Of a stretch of 64,000 bases of DNA, positions 3,930 through 58,639 are shown in pieces. The stretch's first letter is position 1, and each line of letters starts with the position of its first letter. Position numbers and translations under genes: made by a program. The stretch is from Chiloscyllium plagiosum (taxonomy: Eukaryota): positions 58,073,274-58,137,273 of the forward strand of contig NC_057715.1 of NCBI RefSeq assembly GCF_004010195.1, read 5' to 3'. The notes under the pieces were generated by a model that saw nothing but the letters and a program-made list of their open reading frames with translations, was not told the origin of the DNA and did no database searches.

Positions 3930-4120
3930 GGAGAAAGTGAGGACTGCAGATGCTGGAGATTAGAGTTGAGAGTGTGGTGCTGGAAAAGCACAGCAGGTCA
4001 GGCAGTGTCCAAGGAGCAGGTGAATCGATGTTTTGGGCATAAGCCTTTCATTTGGATTCGTCAATTCTCCTGTTCCTTGGATGCTGCCTGACCTGCTGTG
4101 CTTTTCCAACACCACACTCT
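3930..4120. mobile_element. Palindromic PLE-derived element, family A
   Basis: Inverted arms GTGGTGCTGGAAAAGCACAGCAGGTCAGGCA / TGCCTGACCTGCTGTGCTTTTCCAACACCAC; 16-bp direct repeat CAACAAAGGAACAATG at 3914-3929 and 4121-4136. Confidence 0.85.
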
Positions 4121-4243
4121 CAACAAAGGAACAATGCCAAAGAAGCCACCAAAGTTCTGTCTGTGGCAAATATGTCAATGACATCCAAAAGATACTACTA
4201 TGTTTTCGTTTACAGACTCCAGTCAGACAGTATATATAGAGAC

Positions 4244-4448
4244 AAGATTAGAGTGGTGCTGAAAAAGCACAGCAGGTCAGGCAGCATCTGAGGAGCAGGA
4301 AAATCGGTGTATTAGGCAAAAGTCCTTCATGGCTTGCCTGAAACATTGATTTTCCTGCTCCTTGGATGCTGCCAGGCCTGCTGTGCTTTTCCAGCACCAC
4401 TCTAATCGTGACTCTAATTTCCAGAATCTGCAGTACCCACTTCTGCCT
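4244..4448. mobile_element. Palindromic PLE-derived element, family A
   Basis: Same inverted arms as 3930-4120; the long arm ends in the family terminus CTGCAGTACCCACTT. Confidence 0.85.
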
Positions 4449-5224
4449 ATATAAGGAGCCTGGCATACCATATAGATGATGTCAGAAAAGCTGAAGTTCT
4501 TTATCACTATTTAAGTGATACAACAAAAGGAACAGACAACATGAACTATGTACCAACATTGACACTGGTCCAAGTAAAAATATCTTACATCTTACAAGAG
4601 ATATTCTCAGAAAATTGGAACAATTCGGTGCAATCTGCATTTGGTAAGCTAACTGCTTACAACAGGTCCAACATCTCATGGATTGGTATTATTCATCTTG
4701 CATGCCAAGTCATCTCCTCAGGATAAACACCTGAAACCTACTACATCTTTGAAACAGTTAGATTGATTGCTATTGGCCTAACAGCGTATTCACATATTAT
4801 CATGATTTCTGAGATAACCAATCCATCATTTGTAAGACTAAAGGTTCAAGACCACAACACTAAATCCATCCATCTCCTGACCAGCCTTTACCCAATCACA
4901 TTTGTTCCTCTTGGTAACATTAAAGGCAATGCAGTGTTACATCTGAAAGATGATGCTGGACCCAGCATTGGTCCTCCTCATTGTTGCAACATTCACTTTC
5001 AAGATATGCTCAAACTAGAACAGGATTTCAGAGTAGAAGACAATGTCAACTGGAAAGTCATACTGATTGGTGTACTTCCATTATTTCCTGTTTTGAAGAA
5101 AGGCAGCATTGTATGTTTAGATTGAAGGTGATTGAACAATAAAGAGTTACCCACACAAGATTCTTACCCACACAACACTTTACCTGCACTTCTCACAAAC
5201 CATTCTACTGTATTCACTGCTAAC

Positions 5225-5575
5225 AATGTAGTCTCCCCTGCACTGGGGAAACAAAATATAGACTAGGAGACTGTTTTGCAGAACTGGGGACCCTGCAGCC
5301 CTCTGGAGTCAATATTGAATTCAATAATCTTCGGGCCTGAACTCTCCCATGTCCTAGCCCCCTACCACACACACCAGGCCTCATTATCACATAGTCTGCC
5401 CTTACACACTACCTATTGTTAGTCACTAACAGTCTCCATTAGCAGTTATTCACCCTTCCAACCAGATTGTTATCAACTCCATTGTTTGTCCAACTGTTCT
5501 CTGTCTTTGGGCTCTATCCCTACCTATCGTTTACCCCTTACCTCTGTCCCCATTCTACCTATTGCATATAAACCA
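5225..5575 (+). mobile_element. Penelope-like element 3' fragment (GIY-YIG C-terminus plus 3' UTR)
   Basis: TGETKYRLGDCFAE (YIGETxRxLxxRFxEH motif) followed by LQPSGVNIEFNN, a typical PLE ORF end, then a C/T-rich UTR. Confidence 0.78.
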
Positions 5576-8671: not shown

Positions 8672-8706
8672 AGTCCTGAAGAAGGGTTAAACCCGAAATG
8701 TTGACT
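8672..8706 (+). ncRNA. Minimal hammerhead ribozyme motif (PLE terminus, family C-like)
   Basis: AGTC-CTGAAGA-A-GGGT-TAA-ACCC-GAAA-TG-TT-GACT. Stem I is AGTC/GACT, stem II is GGGT/ACCC, and the CUGANGA and GAAA boxes are present. Confidence 0.65.
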
Positions 8707-8719
8707 TCTCCACCTCCTG

Positions 8720-11010
8720 GTTAAGATTAAAGACAATAAAGTGGCCCCGAGACCCTGGTGAATGGATCCCTTCATCCTTAAGGATAATAAGCTTGTGGAG
8801 TACATCTCTTTGGAATTTATGGCATGCCCAGACACTAATTCAGGCTTGGTTAGTAGCCTATCCCTCCTTTAGGAAACTGCCAAAGCCTATGCCAGGGGGT
8901 TAGTTATTTCCTACTCTGCCAGTAGGAAATGGCAGAAGGAAGTGAGCAGCAACATCTCCTTGAAGCACAGTTGAAGGCAGCCGAGAAGACGGAGCTTACC
9001 TTTGCAAAACAAAGTTTATATGAGCATGGTGACAAACCGGGCAATTACCTAGCATATCTCATCAGGAAAAGGAAAGCCCCTCAAGCCATTACTTCAACAA
9101 CGGAAGGGGTTGGGAACCTTACATGTGATTCCAAAAAGATTAATGAGGCATTTTGAGATTTTACTCTGAATTACACCAATCTGAGGGTTGTGAGGAGAAG
9201 TGGACCAAGATGGAATCCTTTTTTAAGGATCTGGACCTCCCAGGTGTGACCCCTGAACAAGAGTCTTTTTTCAATGCCCCCTTATCAGAGCAAGTTGTGC
9301 AGGAAGCCGTGAAAAAGCTACAGAGTGGAAAGGCGCCTGGTCCTGATAGACTTCCCAACAAATTCTGTAAGGAATTTATAAGCATATTGTCAGGCCCGAT
9401 GCTCAACATGTTCAATGACATGTATAGTCATGATCATCTCCTGCCATCTCTAAGAGAGGACAATATTTTGCTTAATCTTAAAAAAGGGCAGGTCCCAGAG
9501 GACTGTGCTTCTTACAGGCCCATTTCACTCTCAAATGTGGACTTTAAAATCCTCTCTAAGGCTCTTGCTTTAAGGCTGGAAACTGTTACCTTCTATTGTT
9601 AAAGAGGACGAGGAGGGCTTCATAAAGGGCCACAGATCCACCAAAAATGTTAGGAGGCTGCTTCATGTAATTCAAGCATGTCAACAACAGTCAATACAAG
9701 GATTGGTGATTTCTCTAGATGCAGAGAAGGCATTTGACTGTACCTTTTTTATACTCTCGAGTGGTTTGGCTTGGGTGAAGTCTTTGTAAGATGGGTAAAG
9801 GTTGTCTACAGTGACCCTCTTGCTGCAATCATCACCAATACGGGACTATCAAGCAATTTTAGCATTTTTAGTGGCAGCCGGCAGGGCTGTCCCCTTTCAC
9901 CATTGCTTTTTACATTGGCGATCGAACAGTTGGCAGAGGACATTCAGAGGGATCCCAATATATTGGTTCCAGAAGTGGGGTCAAAATTACATAAGATTTT
10001 GTTGTATGTGCACGATGTTCTTATTTTTATTGTCAAATCCAGCAGTTCTAGTATCTCGCCTGTTACAATGCATCAGCTTGTTTGGCACCTTTTTGGGGTA
10101 CAAGAGTAACTTTGCAAAAATCAGAGGCTGTGCCATTGGGTGATCTTACAAAGGTGCTAGGTCTTGAGCGTGAATCTCGATTCCCAGTTAAGTGGTCACA
10201 GGGGGGTTTTATGTATTTGGGCATATTCATCACTCCAGTTTTTGATCGGTTGTTTAAAGCTAATTTGGTTCAATTATTCGACAAAATCAAACAAGGCCTT
10301 CAAGGATGGAGGACGCTTCTGGTCGCATGGTTAGGTCAGATAGCGCTTATTAAGATGAATATTCTCCCCCGTTTGTTGTACCCTATACGGATGCTCCCCC
10401 TGCTTTTCGATAAGCAAATGTTCAGGAGACTGAACGGCTGATTCAGTTCTTATATTTGGCATTTTAAGCGGACTCTTATTAAATTAGCTAAACTGCAATT
10501 GTGTTGCAGATAGGGGGGAGTGGATCTCCCAGACATTAAAAACTATCAGCTTTGATCTTATATGAGTGATTGTGTTTGCGGAGAACCTCTTTCAATATGG
10601 TTAGATTTCGAAACCTCTCAGACAAAGTGCCCCCTTACTAGTTTGCTGGTTTTGGACAAAATGAGGACAGTTAAGGAATATTGACATAACTCAATAGTTA
10701 TCAATACTATTAAAGCGTGGAGTCCAATTTGGCAGCAGGAAGGCAATATTGGCAAAACATCTTTTCTTACACCTATAGTGGGTATGCTGTGTTTTCAACT
10801 GGGGATGATGGATTCAGGATTCAAGCATTAGGCAGCTAGGGGTGTGTCTTACATGGGAAATTTATTTGAGGGAGACACAATGTCTTTTGATCAGTTGGCA
10901 TGGAAATACGAGCTAGCAGGGACCTCTTTAATTTTTTTTCAATTTAGGGATTTTATTCAAAAAAAAGACTGTACTTTTGACTGATCCCTACAAATCTGAC
11001 AGAGAGGTCT
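8720..11010 (+). mobile_element. L1-clade LINE ORF2 pseudo-copy (linker plus RT), frameshifted
   Basis: YEHGDKPGNYLA; LQSGKAPGPD; YRPISLSNVDFKILSKALA; SLDAEKAFD; GSRQGCPLSPLLF; LYVHDV (decayed YADD); IALIKMNILPRLLY. Confidence 0.92.
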
Positions 11011-24833: not shown

Positions 24834-25410
24834 TGATATCTATTAGTAGTTGAGAAGCAACCAACATCACCATGAGATCTTTTACATCCACCATCCAGTG
24901 TAATGTCTTATCCAAAATGCAACATTTCCAGCAGTACGGTACTGAATCACAGAATTATATAATCCCTACAGTGTGGAGGCAAGCCATTCAGCCCATCAAG
25001 TTCACACCAACCCTCTGAAGAGCATCCCACCCAGACACAACCCCCTACTCTATCCCTGTAACCCTGCATATCCCATGGCCAATCCACCTAACCTACACAT
25101 CTTTAGAGTGAATTTTCTGAGTTTGTAGTTCAAATCCAGTCCAGACTGATGAAATAAAAGCCTTATCTCAGCCTACACACCACAGATTTAGACAGCTTTG
25201 ATCTAGACACCACTGCATTTTAGATGGGAGAAAAATAACAAAGTAGTCCTACAGAGAAAGGCTGTTTTATTTGTGACCTTATACTGCTGGTAGTATCCCC
25301 ACATCTGAGCAATCTGTCCTGCAAAATGAGAGAATAGGAAAAATAACAAATTCACCATAGAAATATATTGTTGCTTTCTTCCTTGAATGTAAAACTGTGT
25401 TTATCAAGAT

Positions 25411-25509
25411 CTGGAGATGCCGGTGTTGGACTGGGGTGTACAAAGTTAAAAATTACATAACACCAGATTATAGACCAACAGGTTTAATTGGAAGCACACT
25501 AGCTTTCAG
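25411..25509 (-). mobile_element. PLE-derived short insert, family B, single arm
   Basis: TGGAGATGCCGGTGTTGGACTGGGGTGTACAAAGTTAAAA...CTAGCTTTC; 18-bp TSD AACTGTGTTTATCAAGAT at 25393-25410 and 25510-25527. Confidence 0.85.
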
Positions 25510-25995
25510 AACTGTGTTTATCAAGATTATTATTAAAAAACTAGTATGCAAGTGGATAATGTAAACAGCTGTTACAATTTAAAATTTAAGTTTTCTACAA
25601 AGACTATCAATCGTGGTGGAATATCACAGTTCCATTTGGCATGCTGTGGAGAAAAGCCATCTGTTGCTACTGATCTTAATTAAAATGTTGGCATCTGTGG
25701 TTGTCAAGCAGAATGGGACAGAAAGGCAGTGTGGCTTCATGAAGATATAAAGAATAGGGGTTTTGACCCTGAGACATTTGTGGAGCTACATCCCAGTGTG
25801 GGTTTAACTTTCATTAGGCATAGCTAATATGTACAAATCAGTGCAAATAAATCAGGAGCGACACTCAATTCCACCCTTGGGCAATGGTCTGGGTGGAGTT
25901 TGCACATTCTCCCATGTACGCATGGGTTTCCTCTGGTGCTCCAGTTTCCTCCCACAATCCAAAGATGTGCAGGTTAAGTGGAATGTCCATGCTAA

Positions 25996-26219
25996 ATTAG
26001 AGTGGTGCTGGAAAAGCACAGCAGGTCAGGCAACATTTGAGGAGCAGGAAAATCGATATTCCGGGCAAAAGCCCTTCATCAGGAATGCTGATGAAGGGCT
26101 TTTGCCCGAAACGTCGATTTTCCTTTTCCAGGAATGTTGCCTGACCTGCTGTGCTTTTCCAGCACCACTCTAATCTAGACTCTGATTTCTGGGCATCTGC
26201 AGTCCTCACTTTTTTCTGG
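25996..26219. mobile_element. Palindromic PLE-derived element, family A, best-preserved copy
   Basis: About 87-bp inverted arms spanning 25996-26174, plus the terminal extension; TSD CCATGCTAAATT at 25987-25998 and 26220-26231. Confidence 0.9.
26088..26115 (+). ncRNA. Minimal hammerhead ribozyme core
   Basis: CTGATGA-A-GGGC-TTTT-GCCC-GAAA-CG-TC: intact catalytic boxes, stem II and GUC cleavage triplet. Confidence 0.75.
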
Positions 26220-27486
26220 CCATGCTAAATTGCCCATTGTTTCAGGTTAGGTGGATTAGCCATGGAAAATGCAGGTTACAGGGATAAGGTGTGGAGGTTG
26301 ATCTAGGTGGGTTGCTGTTCAGAAGGTCTGTATGGATTTGATGGGCTGAATGGACTAATTCCATACTGTAGGGATTCTATAATTCTAGGTGCAGCCAACT
26401 TTAGTTGTGAGCATCAGAAAGATTATTAGGATTGTGATCCTAAGCATTTTTGTTTTACAGTTTTGCATCAGTATTTTTATGAGGTCCAAGTTGCTCTGTA
26501 ATTTATAAAAGGGGTTACAAATTGTGGTTTTATGTGACTATTCTATAATTCTATAATAGTCTTGGTGATCAGGTTACTATGCAAAGAATCAGTGTCAAGT
26601 TGAAGAATAATACTTGCCATTCTGAATTTGATATTAAGTCAGCCTATAAATCTGACAACATGCTAAACACTTTCTTGATTATGGTAACAGATCAGACGGA
26701 CACCTCTTCATTCCTTCTTCCTCTGTCTCACACCCCAGATGAAAGGGCGCTGCACAGAGTTCTCCGTGAAAAGGTAGATTTTATTCATAATATCCTGTCG
26801 CTCCTCTCAGTGCTATCTTTAAACTTCAGGCACACTGTTATCAACTTCTGTTGTTTCCTGTTGGTGATAACATAAATATTCTGTTCATTAAAAGGAATAG
26901 AATGTCAGTCACAACAGATGAAATGCAAAAAAGAACAGAAAGTATAAAAGTATAGAATGATAACAATGCATTGTTCAGTTTAAGGTCTACACTGTACAAA
27001 ATGTGTTTGCTGCAGTTTTCTACATTGTAATGGGCTATTTCTTAAAATATATTTTTGTTCATGGTGAGTTGCTTTTTGAATTATTTATTGTTGATGGTTT
27101 TATGTGAAATAGGTTTTGCTTCTAGCAGAATTATTTTATCGGCATTACCTATAATAAACCTTGTAACATAAGAAATTAGGTGTGGATATCGTGGTATTGA
27201 AGAATCCAATAGTGAGCTCTATCAGCTACAAATATGTACAGACATTCCATTTCTCAGATATATCAGCATCAAAGTTAACATTAAACAATTTGATTACAAT
27301 TGAGGGTTATGCTTCGAGTAGTAAGTGATTGAGTTAAGGTGGAGTATGCAATCTATATATCCTTAGGTCATACACCACGGTGATACGATAAGCATGTCTC
27401 TTACAGGTATATTGACACACTGTTTCTTAGAGCCAATATACTTTTAAACTGACCATGAGACAAACACAACATTATATAGTCATGAT

Positions 27487-27710
27487 TTGGAGATGCTGGT
27501 GTTGGACTGGGCTGTACAATGTTAAAAATCACATGACACCAGGTTATAGTCCAACAGGTTTAATTGGAAGCACTAGCTTTCGGAGTGCTGCTCCTTCTTC
27601 AGATGATTGTGGTGTACACAACCACATGATGAAGGAGCAGTGCTCTAAAAACTAGTGCTTCCAATTAAACCTGTTGGGCTATAACCTGGTGTCGTGTGAT
27701 TTTTAACATT
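27487..27710. mobile_element. Palindromic PLE-derived element, family B, with hammerhead core on the minus strand (27574-27602)
   Basis: Inverted arms AATGTTAAAAATCAC...CCAGGTTATAG / CTATAACCTGG...GTGATTTTTAACATT. Minus strand reads CTGAAGA-A-GGAG-CAGCA-CTCC-GAAA-GC-TA. Confidence 0.85.
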
Positions 27711-28111: not shown

Positions 28112-28205
28112 GCACATTCCTGATGATGGGCTTATGCCCAAAATGGTGACTCTCCAGCTCCTCAGATGCTGCCTGACCTGCTGTGATTTTTCAGTGCCAC
28201 CTTTT
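28112..28205 (+). mobile_element. PLE-derived family A single arm with decayed hammerhead
   Basis: CTGATGATGGGCTTATGCCCAAAA...CTCCTCAGATGCTGCCTGACCTGCTGTG. Confidence 0.75.
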
Positions 28206-33349: not shown

Positions 33350-35575
33350 GATAGGTAAGGCAGATTAACTTAGGGTACGATTGGGAACATGGAACTGGAA
33401 TGTCATAGCTTTAACAGAAACGTAGCTCAGGGATGGACAACATGGCAGCTTAATGTTCTACAGTATAGATGCTCAAGGAAGAATAGAAAGGGAGGCAAGA
33501 GAGGAGGAGCAATGGCATTTTTGGTTAGAGAATGACATTACAACTATACTTAAGGAGGATATTCCTAGGAGATCGTCGAGTGAAATTATATAGACTGAGA
33601 AATAGGAAAGGGATGATCACCTTGTTGGGACTGCATCATAGGGTCCTCAATAGGCAATGGGAAATTGATAGGCAAATGTGTAAGAAGACCTCTGATATTT
33701 CAAAGAAAATTGGTATGAAGTAGTAGGGAATTTTAACTTACAAACTTAGACTAGGACTATCATACTGTTAAGTGCTTGGATGGAGAGGAACTTATTAAGT
33801 GTGTACAAGAAAACTTTCTTATTCAATATGTGCATGTATCTACTAAAAAAGGAGTAAAACTTGATCTTCTGTTGGGAAATAAGGCAGGACAAGTTACAGA
33901 GGTCTCAGTGAGAGAACACTTTGGGGCAACTGATCATAATTCTATTTGTTTCAAAGTAGTTATAGAAAGGGAGAGAATTGATCAAAAAGTTAAAGGCCTT
34001 ATAAGGCCAAATTTGACAGTATTAGACAGGAAATTTCCAAGTTGATGGGGCCAGGTAAAGGGACAGTTAGTAAGTCGGAGGCCTTCAAATATAAGGTAAT
34101 GAGAGTTCAGAGTCAGCATGTTCCTGTTAGTGCAAGGGGCAAGGCCGCTATGTCCAGGGAATGCTGGATGACTAGAGAAATTGAGGCTCTGGTCAAGAAA
34201 ATTAAGGAGGCATATATCAGGTGGGGATTGAGTGAATCCCTAGAGGAGTATAAGGGCAGTAGGAGTATACTTAAGAGGGAAATCAGGAAGACAGAAAGGG
34301 GACATGAGATAGCTTTGGCAAATAGGGTTAAAGAGAATCAAGAGAGATTCTATAAATACATTAGAACAGAAGAGTAACTAGAGAGAGAATAGGGCCCCTT
34401 AAAAATCAACATGGCCGTCTACCTATGGAACCACAGGAGATGGGTGAGATATTAAACAAATATTTTGCACCAATATTTACTGTGGAGAAGGATATGAAAA
34501 CTAGGGTACTTGGAGAAATAAATAGTGATGTCTTGAAAAGAATTCATATTACAGAAGAGGAGGTGCTAAAGGTCTTAAAACATATAAAGGTAGATAAATC
34601 CTCAGGACCTGATCAGATGTTTTGCAGAACTTTGTGCGAAGCTGAGAGAAGTGATTGCTGGGCTCCTTGCTGAGATACTTGTATCATCGATAGCCACAGG
34701 TGACGTGCCAGAAGACTTGAGATTGGCTAATGTGGTGCCACTATTTAAAAAAGGCTGTAAGGAAAAGACAGGGAACTATAGACTGGTGAGCTATATGTCA
34801 GTGGTGGGTGAGTTGTTGGAGGGGATTCTGAGGGACAGGATTTATATCTATTTAGAAAGGCAAGGACTGATTAGGGATAGTCAACATGACTTGGTGCATG
34901 GGAAATCATGTCTCACTAACTTATTTGGGTTTTTTGAAGAGTTGATAAAGAAGATTGATAAAAGCAGAGTGGTCAATGTTACCTATGTGGACTTCAGCAA
35001 ACAACCTTAATCCAACAACCATCTGATGAAAGAGCAGCACTCTGAAAGCTAGTGCTTTCAAATAAACCTGATGGACTGTAACCTGGTGTTGTGTGATTTT
35101 TGACTTCAGCAAAGCATTTGACAAGGTTCCGCATTGTAGACTGTTTAGTAAGGAAGGTCACAAGGGATCCAGGGGGAGCTAGCCAATTGGATACAAAACT
35201 GGCTTGAAAATATGAGATAGAGGGTACTGGTAGAGGGTTGCTTTTCAGACTGGAGGCCTATGACCAGCAGTGTGCCACAAAGATCAGTGCTGGGTCCACT
35301 GCTTTTTGTCATTTATGTAAATGACTTGGATATGAATATAAGATGTATGGTTAGCAAGTTTGCAGAGGGCACAAAAATAGCTGGTGTAGTGGACAGCGAA
35401 GAAGATTACTAAAATTACAAGGGGACCCTAATCAGATGGGCAAATGGGTCAAGGAGTAGCAGATAGAGTTTAATGGAATAGATTTCTATTTTAGATTTTT
35501 AGTTTAATTTATATAAATGTGACGTGTTGCATTTTGTTAAGGCATTTACAGTTAATGTTAGTGTCTTGGGGAGTG
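33350..35575 (+). mobile_element. CR1 LINE ORF2 (endonuclease plus RT), 3'-truncated
   Basis: LDLLLGN...HFGATDHNSICF; ANRVKENQERFYKYI; DKSSGPD; LANVVPLFKKG...NYRLVS; GKSCLTNL; YVDFSK|AFD; PQRSVLGPLLFVIYVND. Confidence 0.93.
35002..35101 (+). mobile_element. PLE-derived family B insert with hammerhead core (35023-35051), inside the CR1 RT
   Basis: CAT-CTGATGA-A-AGAG-CAGCA-CTCT-GAAA-GC-TA-GTG; TSD GACTTCAGCAAA at 34990-35001 and 35102-35113. Confidence 0.85.
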
Positions 35576-37030: not shown

Positions 37031-37218
37031 CTGGTGTGGAGGTGCCGCTGTTGGACTGAGGTGGACAAAATCAGAAGTCACACATTACCAAGTTATAGTC
37101 TAACAAATTTATTTGAAATCACAAGCTTTTTGTCAGGTGAAGGGGCAGTGCTCTGAAAGCTTATGATTTTAGATAAACCTGTTGGACTATAACTTGGTGT
37201 CTTGTGACTTCTGACTTT
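37031..37218. mobile_element. Palindromic PLE-derived element, family B variant, inserted in a CR1 3' end
   Basis: Arms CAGAAGTCAC...CCAAGTTATAGTC / GACTATAACTTGG...GTGACTTCTG; decayed core GGGGCAGTGCTCTGAAAGCTT. Confidence 0.78.
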
Positions 37219-38606
37219 ATTCAATAGGATCATGACTGATCCATTTTCCAGTATTTTCCCCCTAACCCTTGATTCCCCGACTGATCAAGAATTCCTGCTG
37301 AGTATCAAGTTGAGCTTTCACCGGTTTCATATTGATTTAAATTTACTTTCTATTGACTTCAACGAGCAGTAAAATCTGACAACACATAGTTTGATGGGGT
37401 CTTAGTACAGATATCAATTGTTTCTGGGGTCTTGAGTCTGCACCACATCAGCAATGCACATATGGTGCAATTATGATATGGAAATAAGCTATTTGGTTGT
37501 AATCATTCATTCATTCCCTGATTCACAATGGTTAACAAGGGAAAGTGGCATAATACAGGCAATTTTTACTCAATTTAAAGGGCAGGCAACAATCATTGTC
37601 AAGGCTGCTCCCTAAGGAATGGAAGAAGGACCAGAGCAGGAGGCAGTGAGAAGGCTCACTGGGTGGACATGGCGGGAGATGGCACTGGAGATCTGACATA
37701 CGACATTTCCCTTACTTTATTTGTCCTGGAATGTGTTCCGGCTTGCCTACAAATCGATTTACCAACAGACTCCAGAACAAACCCATTCGCAACCTAAGAT
37801 GTCAGAACTTCCAGAGGAGGTGGTCAATGCAGTTTCAGTTACAATGTTTAAAAGACATTTAGATAAGTTGATGAATAAGAAACTCTTAGAGAAATATGGG
37901 TAAAGCGCAAGCAGGTGTCTCTAGTTTAGCTTGGGATTATGGTTGCCATAGACTTGTTGGAGCGACGAGTCTGTTTCCACCTATATGCCTTGTAGGATTG
38001 AGCAAAAATCCCCATCATCTAAAATACTGGAGCAAAACCCTGCACTTTTCAAAAACTTTTAAAAATAAAGGGGCAGCTGAGCTGAGCTCTGGAAAAAATA
38101 CACCAACATAAAGATGGCTGCCTGGAACCATTGTTCAGTCTGGAATTCCAATCTTCTATTTGAACAGAACAATCAAGCAAACCTAACGCTCTAGACTGAA
38201 GCTACCTTTTATACCTCGAGCTACCCAACACAGACAATATGGAACCTATACAGATACCAGATATTCAACTTCAATCAGCATTCATTCACAGAGATATCGG
38301 GCATTCAACTTCAAACAAATCCATTTACACATGCTCTTAACAATCGGAAGCCAGCTGACTTCAAAGAGAGCACCAGTAACACAATGGCAAGCGCAGATTT
38401 GGTGTGAAGATAAGAGGCCCACAATTAGTGTAATTGCAGCCCTGATCTCACCGGAACAAGCTATCCCACAGCTATCTCCAGAAGAGAGATCCCAAAGAGC
38501 TATCTCCCCGAGAGCTACTCCCCCAGCAGCGAATTCCAGTGGCTATTTCCAAGAGCTATCTCCGGAAAGGGGATTCCGACAACAATGCCAAAACCTACAG
38601 ACATAG

Positions 38607-38772
38607 TCCAGAGTGTGGTGCTGGAAAAGCGCAGCAGGTCAAGCAGCATCTGAGGAGCAGGATAATCAATGTTTCAAGCAAAAGCCCTTAATCAGGAATG
38701 CTTGATGAAGGGCTTTTGCCCAAAACCATACTTTCGACTCTGATCTCCAGCATCTGTAGTTCTCACTCTCTC
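38607..38772. mobile_element. Palindromic PLE-derived element, family A, internally deleted
   Basis: GTGTGGTGCTGGAAAAGC...AAAAGCCCTTAATCAGGAATGCTTGATGAAGGGCTTTTGCCC...CTCCAGCATCTGTAG. Confidence 0.82.
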
Positions 38773-58165: not shown

Positions 58166-58639
58166 AAATCATCTGATCTGTAAAGCATGATCTGACTTAA
58201 TATGTCTGCAAAATAAATTCCCACAAGAATGTCACCCTGTCAAAGCCAAGCCTTACAGAAATGTGCATGGCAACAAACTAAGATTTCATAACCTCAGTCT
58301 GAGCTTTCCCTGTTGGACTCTGTCATTAGATAGCTTCTGTCTGCACTGCATAGGATGCTAAGGTACTTGGCAGACACTGTATCATGTTGGAAAATGGTTT
58401 GGAATGACAGTGACCATGAAAGGGATATCTACTTAACAGTCTGGTGTATTCTTAATCTTAGACTTATTTTTCCTAGTCCCCTTAGTGTCAATTCAGTTGA
58501 AAGTCACACAACTCCAGGTTATAGTCCAACAGGCTTATTTGAAATTGCAATAGTGTTGTTCTCCCCTCGATCTCTAACTGAGACTTTTCTTATTGAGTGT
58601 CTGTTTTTGTTAAGGTTATATCATTGATCACATCCCTGA

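What the first reader, a model, noticed from the sequence alone, without database searches (positions are those of the whole stretch)
25987..26231. Palindromic, non-coding, ribozyme-bearing mini-retroelement inserted as a unit
Seen: about 87-bp inverted arms whose centre holds a hammerhead core on each strand. The + core is intact at 26088-26115 (CTGATGA-A-GGGC-TTTT-GCCC-GAAA-CG-TC); the minus core has GAAA changed to GGAA. The insert sits inside an HE1 SINE with a 12-bp exact TSD (15 bp with one mismatch). Established: Penelope-like elements carry minimal hammerheads in their terminal repeats and often show inverted termini. Inference: this is either a SINE/MITE-like non-autonomous unit mobilised by PLE machinery or a recurrent product of inverted priming. 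It would present a ribozyme, or a long dsRNA hairpin, whichever strand is transcribed. This is the best candidate for an under-described system in the window.
Basis: partly seen in the sequence, partly recalled or inferred. Interest (0 to 1): 0.7.

Follow-up and report, generated by a model that had tools for sequence, protein, structure and literature searches.

The report
Back-to-back Penelope retroelement ends, shark
This 218-base mirror-image insert is one of very many back-to-back stubs of a known kind of jumping gene (a Penelope-like retroelement) in a shark-like genome; it was likely built on the spot when both cut DNA strands copied the short front end of the element's RNA, so it is a footprint of how these elements insert and probably not a self-spreading ribozyme element.

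Summary
The palindrome, the target-site duplication (TSD) and the hammerhead cores are real. It is not a palindromic family spreading as a unit. Each arm is the terminal repeat (pLTR) of an RT + GIY-YIG Penelope-like element (PLE) present in this genome. An inverted pLTR with a one-sided ~38-nt 'tail' and a TSD is the published PLE insertion layout. In 1.41 Mb of arbitrarily chosen DNA plus the window, 70 head-to-head pairs had 68 different junctions. Of 67 scorable pairs, 64 carried exactly one tail and none carried two. Arm 5' ends pile up 1-6 nt upstream of the hammerhead core at an initiator-like motif, not at the cleavage site. A non-parental G is enriched there genome-wide (4,426 G, 2,064 A, 837 T), as expected from copying a capped RNA end. 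Best reading (inferred): two target-primed cDNAs start at the element's two internal start sites, run off the mRNA 5' end and are joined head to head. On read-through RNA the hairpin is predicted to sequester both cores; the minus core is broken. The scan has noted this reading before on other DNA, including this genome.

The parts
25984..25998 (+). Left target-site duplication (15 nt; one mismatch to the right copy). Its last 7 nt also read as the outer end of the inverted arm (microhomology).
25999..26087 (-). Inverted, tail-less pLTR arm: parent positions -5 to about +84/+91 (C3 of the hammerhead core = +1)
26055..26082 (-). Broken minimal hammerhead core (GAAA->GGAA, helix III CG->TA)
26083..26087 (+). 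Unpaired 5-nt centre: positions -5..-1 of the inverted arm (initiator-like motif), joined bluntly to +1 of the direct arm
26088..26216 (+). Direct pLTR arm, +1 to +129, with tail
26088..26115 (+). Minimal type I hammerhead core, intact in sequence; predicted cleavage after 26115; 5' strand of helix I lost
26179..26216 (+). 38-nt one-sided PLE 'tail'
   Evidence: layout as in PMC3846280 and PMC8557442
26217..26231 (+). Right target-site duplication
25865..26386 (+). Host SINE (HE1-like, name recalled), interrupted by the insert; ends approximate

Best explanation
The insert is two 5'-truncated terminal repeats of a Penelope-like retroelement lying head to head between target-site duplications, likely made anew at this site when both cut target strands primed reverse transcription of the short front end of the element's probably capped RNA. 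Shown: the arm is both the 3' end of RT-GIY-YIG elements and the 5' leader of their ORF; pairs carry one tailed (+~127) and one tail-less (+~90) arm; junctions differ from copy to copy; 5' ends pile up at -6..-1 with a G excess before -4. Inferred: transcription starts at the A at -4 of an initiator-like motif; the element's protein nicks both strands about 15 nt apart; one end primes at +~127 and the other at +~90 on the same RNA; both cDNAs run off or stall near the cap and are joined by end-joining. The hammerhead is a passenger here and does not set the junction.
For: Arm upstream runs into a GIY-YIG frame in 20 of 41 long arms tested, including L075, 88% identical to the window arm (the 41 included some mis-called rows, corrected). 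Weak Pfam GIY-YIG match, E=0.0011, below the curated cut-off. Homologs with RVT_1 + GIY-YIG. RT-GIY frames of 649-893 aa in 9 of 16 fetched loci; in 8 of the 9 an arm follows within about 0.5 kb of the matched region, some frames running into it. pLTR-ORF-pLTR layout in L200; in L198 an upstream copy's end runs into the ORF start. 64 of 67 scorable pairs are tail + no-tail and 0 are tail + tail, while single arms split 70:75 (p=3e-16). A second family gives 26 of 26, singles 16:18. 68 junction types in 70 pairs; TSD in 48 of 67 against a mean of 0.5 for shuffled flanks; same stem II loop in both arms in 18 of 21 against 5.6 shuffled. 5'-end rate 0.077/nt at -1..-6, 0.008 across the cleavage site, <=0.008 upstream of -14. 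Base before -4 genome-wide in one subfamily: C (parental) 19,738, G 4,426, A 2,064, T 837; G is 60% of non-parental against 26% expected. Neighbouring positions show no such excess: 16 G of the first 100 at -4, 24 G to 21 A of the first 100 at -6. The tail-less arm reaches further upstream in 37 of 64 pairs, which simple fold-back copying cannot give. In vitro, an Anolis PLE cuts and extends both strands and starts at two internal sites that bound the tail (PMC11167929). An extra G marks capped 5' ends in L1 insertions (PMC11702581).
Against: No transcription start was mapped: RNA reads showed no pile-up of starts or ends (3'-type single-cell library, 2% of the run read). Of 40 G loci inspected by eye, only 10 have a G that neither target nor partner arm supplies; 8 have it in the target (microhomology; 2 of these are duplicates), 11 could take it from the partner arm, 8 follow spacers of unknown origin and 3 have other causes. 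The G count is for a sister subfamily, not the window's own, and the window copy has no extra G. Later asymmetric deletion of a fold-back centre could also give either arm the longer reach. 3 of 67 pairs have no tail; 19 of 67 have no TSD by my rule. PMC11167929 found no difference in start site between strands, so the coupling of one tail per pair is not yet explained in vitro. No full-length copy of the window's exact subfamily was found.
Confidence: 0.7

Rival explanations
1. Fold-back or self-priming: one cDNA (or an antisense RNA) folds back at its 3' end and is copied into the second arm; the endonuclease then trims one end to leave the one-sided tail, and centres are later eroded.
For: This is the published interpretation (PMC3846280; tail as endonuclease resolution, PMC8557442). 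It explains the shared subfamily of both arms (18 of 21) and the one-tail rule. Overlapping (microhomologous) junctions occur in 23 of 70 pairs.
Against: In 37 of 64 pairs each arm holds sequence the other lacks. 40 of 70 junctions have spacers of 1-39 nt and 7 are blunt. Single arms end at both positions about equally (70:75), so +~90 is an independent end. The G excess at -4 points to a sense, capped template.
Confidence: 0.2
2. A SINE/MITE-like non-autonomous palindromic unit that is transcribed whole and re-inserted by PLE proteins.
For: Very high copy number (about 49 pairs per Mb, roughly 170,000 if extrapolated); narrow size; TSDs; 40 close full-length matches at 84-91% (selected by similarity). 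Two junction types occur twice among 70 pairs.
Against: 68 of 70 junctions differ; there is a size continuum up to ORF-bearing inverted copies; both outer ends sit at the PLE end positions; the inferred promoters point outwards, so neither would transcribe both arms. The two repeated junction types are microhomology overlaps.
Confidence: 0.05
3. The 5' ends cluster because reverse transcriptase stalls at the hammerhead structure or meets a ribozyme-cut RNA end, with no special RNA start at -4.
For: 5'-end rate is already raised at +1..+10 (0.027/nt) inside the core.
Against: No peak at the cleavage site (+27..+31: 9 of 230, same rate as its neighbours). The peak lies at -4/-3, beyond the structure, and the G excess is position-specific. 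PMC11167929 found hammerhead mutants did not change insertion in vitro.
Confidence: 0.05

Closest known systems
Endonuclease-bearing PLE insertions with inverted pLTR, one-sided tail and TSD (Pen2a_Av and others, PMC3846280; general scheme PMC8557442 Fig. 2; D. virilis Penelope, PMC2377424)
   Same: Head-to-head inverted 5'-truncated copy, 30-40-nt tail at one end only, TSD, hammerhead in the pLTR, RT + C-terminal GIY-YIG parent.
   Different: Here both copies are truncated to under 135 nt, so nothing lies between them; TSD about 15 nt rather than 8-10; on the order of 10^5 copies; 5' ends cluster at one motif.
Poseidon of Anolis carolinensis (PAc), PMC11167929
   Same: Two end positions about 35-40 nt apart downstream of a minimal hammerhead; hammerhead not needed for the insertion pattern.
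   Different: Different clade (the parent here has a CX4CxxC linker). In L200 the first in-frame Met of the ORF lies downstream of the arm, not in stem II. In the passages read, that paper does not derive the inverted copy or describe a cap signature.
Minimal hammerheads of metazoan PLEs, PMC4209133
   Same: Core with one extra nucleotide before stem II, G10.1-C11.1 pair, 2-nt palindromic helix III, weak helix I; pairs on opposite strands 100-700 bp apart were mentioned.
   Different: Stem II is 4 bp here; the opposite-strand pair is only 5 nt apart.
Non-LTR retrozymes, PMC7229834 (abstract and outline only)
   Same: Small, ORF-less, hammerhead-bearing repeats.
   Different: Retrozymes are direct tandem repeats giving 170-400-nt circular RNAs; this is an inverted pair cut from an autonomous PLE end.
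L1 twin priming and cap-derived extra G (passages in PMC11702581)
   Same: Both target ends primed on RNA, joined by end-joining; extra G at a complete 5' end.
   Different: L1 twin priming inverts adjacent, non-overlapping segments (recalled); here both cDNAs would copy the same segment.

Membership tests
EN+ Penelope-like element (terminus of) | Arm contiguous with a single ORF of RT plus C-terminal GIY-YIG | tested here: met
   Pfam matches are weak. Shown for sister subfamilies in full and for the window's subfamily as far as the GIY-YIG region (L075).
EN+ Penelope-like element (terminus of) | [quoted passage not shown] | tested here: met
   L200 has arm-ORF-arm; L198 has an upstream copy's end running into the ORF start
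EN+ Penelope-like element (terminus of) | Inverted 5'-truncated copy and 30-40-nt tail at one end | tested here: met
   64 of 67 pairs; 38-nt tail in the window
EN+ Penelope-like element (terminus of) | TSD around the whole unit | tested here: met
   Window 15 nt; 48 of 67 pairs against 0.5 shuffled
Neptune clade | CX2-5CxxC linker between RT and EN (also in Nematis) | tested here: met
   CX4CxxC seen in the translated frames; definition from PMC8557442
Neptune clade | RT phylogeny groups with Neptune | not tested
   No tree built; no named reference proteins in hand
Minimal PLE hammerhead | Core, stem II and palindromic helix III, with covariation between families | tested here: met
   80 hits against 0 shuffled; several stem II variants and CG/GC helix III. 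Met for the plus core only.
Minimal PLE hammerhead | Helix I around the cleavage site in this copy | tested here: not met
   First pair is G.G on the plus core; the minus core has the helix strand but a broken core
Minimal PLE hammerhead | Self-cleavage | not testable with these tools
   Needs an assay
Non-autonomous SINE/MITE-like family | Copies share one fixed internal structure inherited as a unit | tested here: not met
   68 junction types in 70 pairs
Non-LTR retrozyme | Direct tandem units with one hammerhead each, no autonomous parent sequence | tested here: not met
   Arrangement is inverted; arms continue into a PLE ORF
Non-LTR retrozyme | Abundant unit-length linear and circular RNA | tested here: inconclusive
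   No pile-up of read ends in an unsuitable library

The most novel reading that the evidence does not exclude
These stubs record the missing steps of PLE transposition: one protein dimer nicks both strands, primes two cDNAs from the two internal start sites of a single capped mRNA, and the commonest product is a short run-off of the 5' leader. That would explain together the inverted pLTR, the one-sided tail and the flood of ORF-less hammerhead copies, and replace the antisense self-priming model.
Probability: 0.55. Interest if true: 0.55.

Novelty: new member of a known kind. Interest (0 to 1): 0.33.

Why it matters
As an object it is ordinary: one old copy among very many, with a published layout. 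Its value is as data. How PLEs make their inverted ends and one-sided tail is still open in the papers read, and the family statistics (one tail per pair, a cap-like G at a fixed 5' end, no mark at the ribozyme cut site) give a specific model that existing in vitro systems can test. If the extrapolation holds, the genome also carries on the order of 170,000 near-perfect 80-90-bp inverted repeats that would form dsRNA in read-through transcripts; no effect of this was shown.

Tried and rejected
Rfam: no hammerhead model matched; only miRNA-like hairpin hits far below gathering scores. Best-hit genome search returns full palindromes by construction, so it was not used for statistics. Searches used a reference (L079) that contained an inverted arm and mis-called about 10 pairs as long singles; one search corrects this and its numbers are the ones reported (one search's list of long arms still holds the mis-called rows). 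Ribozyme cleavage as the cause of the junction: no peak at +29. A 3' splice site upstream of the core: no conserved AG across subfamilies (by eye). Sequencing runs: no RNA holder listed. Laid RNA reads came from other family copies (99% run on unlike), so there is no locus-level expression or editing evidence; A>G differences also appear in DNA contigs. No contig bridged the insert, so presence or absence at the orthologous site in two related organisms is unresolved. No tblastn match of the PLE protein P0010 in the 64-kb window. No ORF link was found for family B in 900 nt upstream of its arms. Literature searches for a prior description: (0 papers with Penelope-like + shark + Neptune); none showed twin priming or a cap G for PLEs. 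Subscription papers, Repbase and supplements were not seen and may hold it. PMC7353768 was checked and is irrelevant.

Full report
Observation. The window holds a 91-nt inverted repeat at 25992-26082 / 26088-26178 that folds far better than shuffles (z -20.4). It is flanked by a 15-nt duplication with one mismatch. Six other copies of the surrounding SINE in the window have that motif once, so the 218-nt piece 25999-26216 is an insertion into the SINE. The insert is asymmetric: the right arm continues 38 nt past the palindrome. The minus core has two lesions, and the plus core lacks its parental helix I strand. Rfam does not detect these minimal cores; a descriptor finds 80 in 1.41 Mb and 0 in five shuffles, with covarying stem II and helix III among families.

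What the arm is. The window lies in a 3.56-Gb genome. The closest named protein relatives of the element are from carpet sharks. I took 140 arbitrarily placed 10-kb stretches (1.35 Mb without N). Many single arms continue upstream into a shared pyrimidine-rich region and then a GIY-YIG frame. Relatives of that frame carry RVT_1 and GIY-YIG. Searching the genome with one of them gave long RT-GIY frames followed by the arm. In L200 and L198 the arm also precedes the ORF start. The arm is therefore the pLTR of an endonuclease-bearing PLE, with a Neptune-type CX4CxxC linker (no tree was built). For the window's own subfamily the link is shown as far as the GIY-YIG region (L075, 88% identical arm).

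Is the palindrome a propagating unit? Corrected mapping gave 288 arms, of which 140 form 70 head-to-head pairs (66 outside the window, 49 per Mb). These have 68 different junctions. Larger inverted copies that include coding sequence also occur. Of 67 scorable pairs, 64 have one tailed and one tail-less arm, 3 have no tail and none has two, while single arms split 70:75. An unrelated hammerhead family in the same sample gives 26 of 26. TSDs were found in 48 of 67 pairs (shuffled mean 0.5, maximum 3). Both arms share the stem II loop variant in 18 of 21 scorable pairs (shuffled mean 5.6). So each palindrome looks assembled at insertion from one source element. Only 3 of 70 keep two intact cores, 26 keep one and 41 none.

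Where arms begin. The 5'-end rate is 0.077 per nt at -1..-6 from the core, 0.027 at +1..+10, 0.008 across the predicted cleavage site and at most 0.008 upstream of -14 (276 arms; 12 next to N or an edge were dropped). Long copies read (C/T)ATTC just before the core (49 of 52), which resembles a Pol II initiator (consensus recalled). Whole-genome counts for one sister subfamily give the base before -4 as C 19,738, G 4,426, A 2,064, T 837. Positions -4 and -6 show no G excess in the first 100 listed matches. I read the first 40 G loci by eye. In 39 the element begins at -4. The G is unambiguously extra in 10, matches the target in 8, could come from the partner arm in 11, follows a spacer in 8, and has other causes in 3. 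An extra G is the known mark of copying an mRNA cap in L1 (PMC11702581, passages). I infer a capped RNA starting at -4; this was not mapped, and RNA reads gave no start signal.

Mechanism. Published PLE work shows the inverted pLTR with a one-sided tail (PMC3846280, passages; PMC8557442, passages; PMC8969392 and PMC2377424, passages). It shows minimal hammerheads in pLTRs (PMC4209133, parts 1-2 of 4). An Anolis PLE cuts and extends both strands from two internal RNA sites bounding the tail, without needing its hammerhead (PMC11167929, parts 1-2 of 4). Because those sites lie in the 5' leader as well as at the 3' end, priming on the leader would give 90-130-nt run-off cDNAs ending at the cap. 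Priming from both target ends, one at each site, then joining, gives the window's structure. The tail-less arm reaches further upstream in 37 of 64 pairs, the tailed arm in 23, with 4 ties. In the 37, each arm holds sequence the other lacks, which argues against plain fold-back, though later centre deletion could mimic it.

Ribozyme or hairpin? On read-through RNA of either strand the long hairpin takes over and stem II pairing is 0.0; on single-arm RNA it is above 0.9. The claim of a ribozyme on either strand therefore fails in prediction. A dsRNA hairpin is predicted but was not observed.

Novelty. The layout and the ribozyme type are published; this is a miniature member of a known kind. 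The twin-priming and cap run-off reading was not found in my paper searches, which miss subscription journals, Repbase and supplements. Earlier notes of this scan reach the same reading in this and other shark genomes; I read them after my analysis, and they are not independent support. Interest 0.33.

Noticed in passing
window 3930-4118, 4237-4448, 38612-38772: Three more head-to-head pairs of the same family, each with one tail and a different junction; a single arm at 28115-28200.
   Followed up: yes
window 27480-27710, 37037-37223, 35015-35104, 25404-25510, 58496-58557: A second hammerhead family (different stem II, GC helix III) with the same one-tail palindrome rule (26 of 26 pairs in the sample); its coding parent was not found.
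   Followed up: partly
window 8676-8720: Short stub of a third hammerhead family with a 5-bp helix I; related longer copy in L107.
   Followed up: no
L243 3868-4058; L048 6230-6407: Junctions where one arm cut at about +29 joins the other at the core start, through homology that mimics hammerhead helix I.
   Followed up: no
L036 3900-4150; L191 oriented 4986-5503; L193, L196 near ORF 5' ends: Tandem re-copies of 66-120-nt ORF segments at 5' truncation points of long copies, suggestive of repeated template jumps or slippage.
   Followed up: no
G000:C1 18547208-18547255 and 8 similar pairs in the first 100 rows: Recurrent perfect palindromes centred on a self-complementary 4-nt overlap at -4, a microhomology hot-spot that inflates the A count.
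   Followed up: no
window 26238-26275: The host SINE has an internal partial duplication of about 35-40 nt, also seen in another copy at 24951-25110.
   Followed up: no
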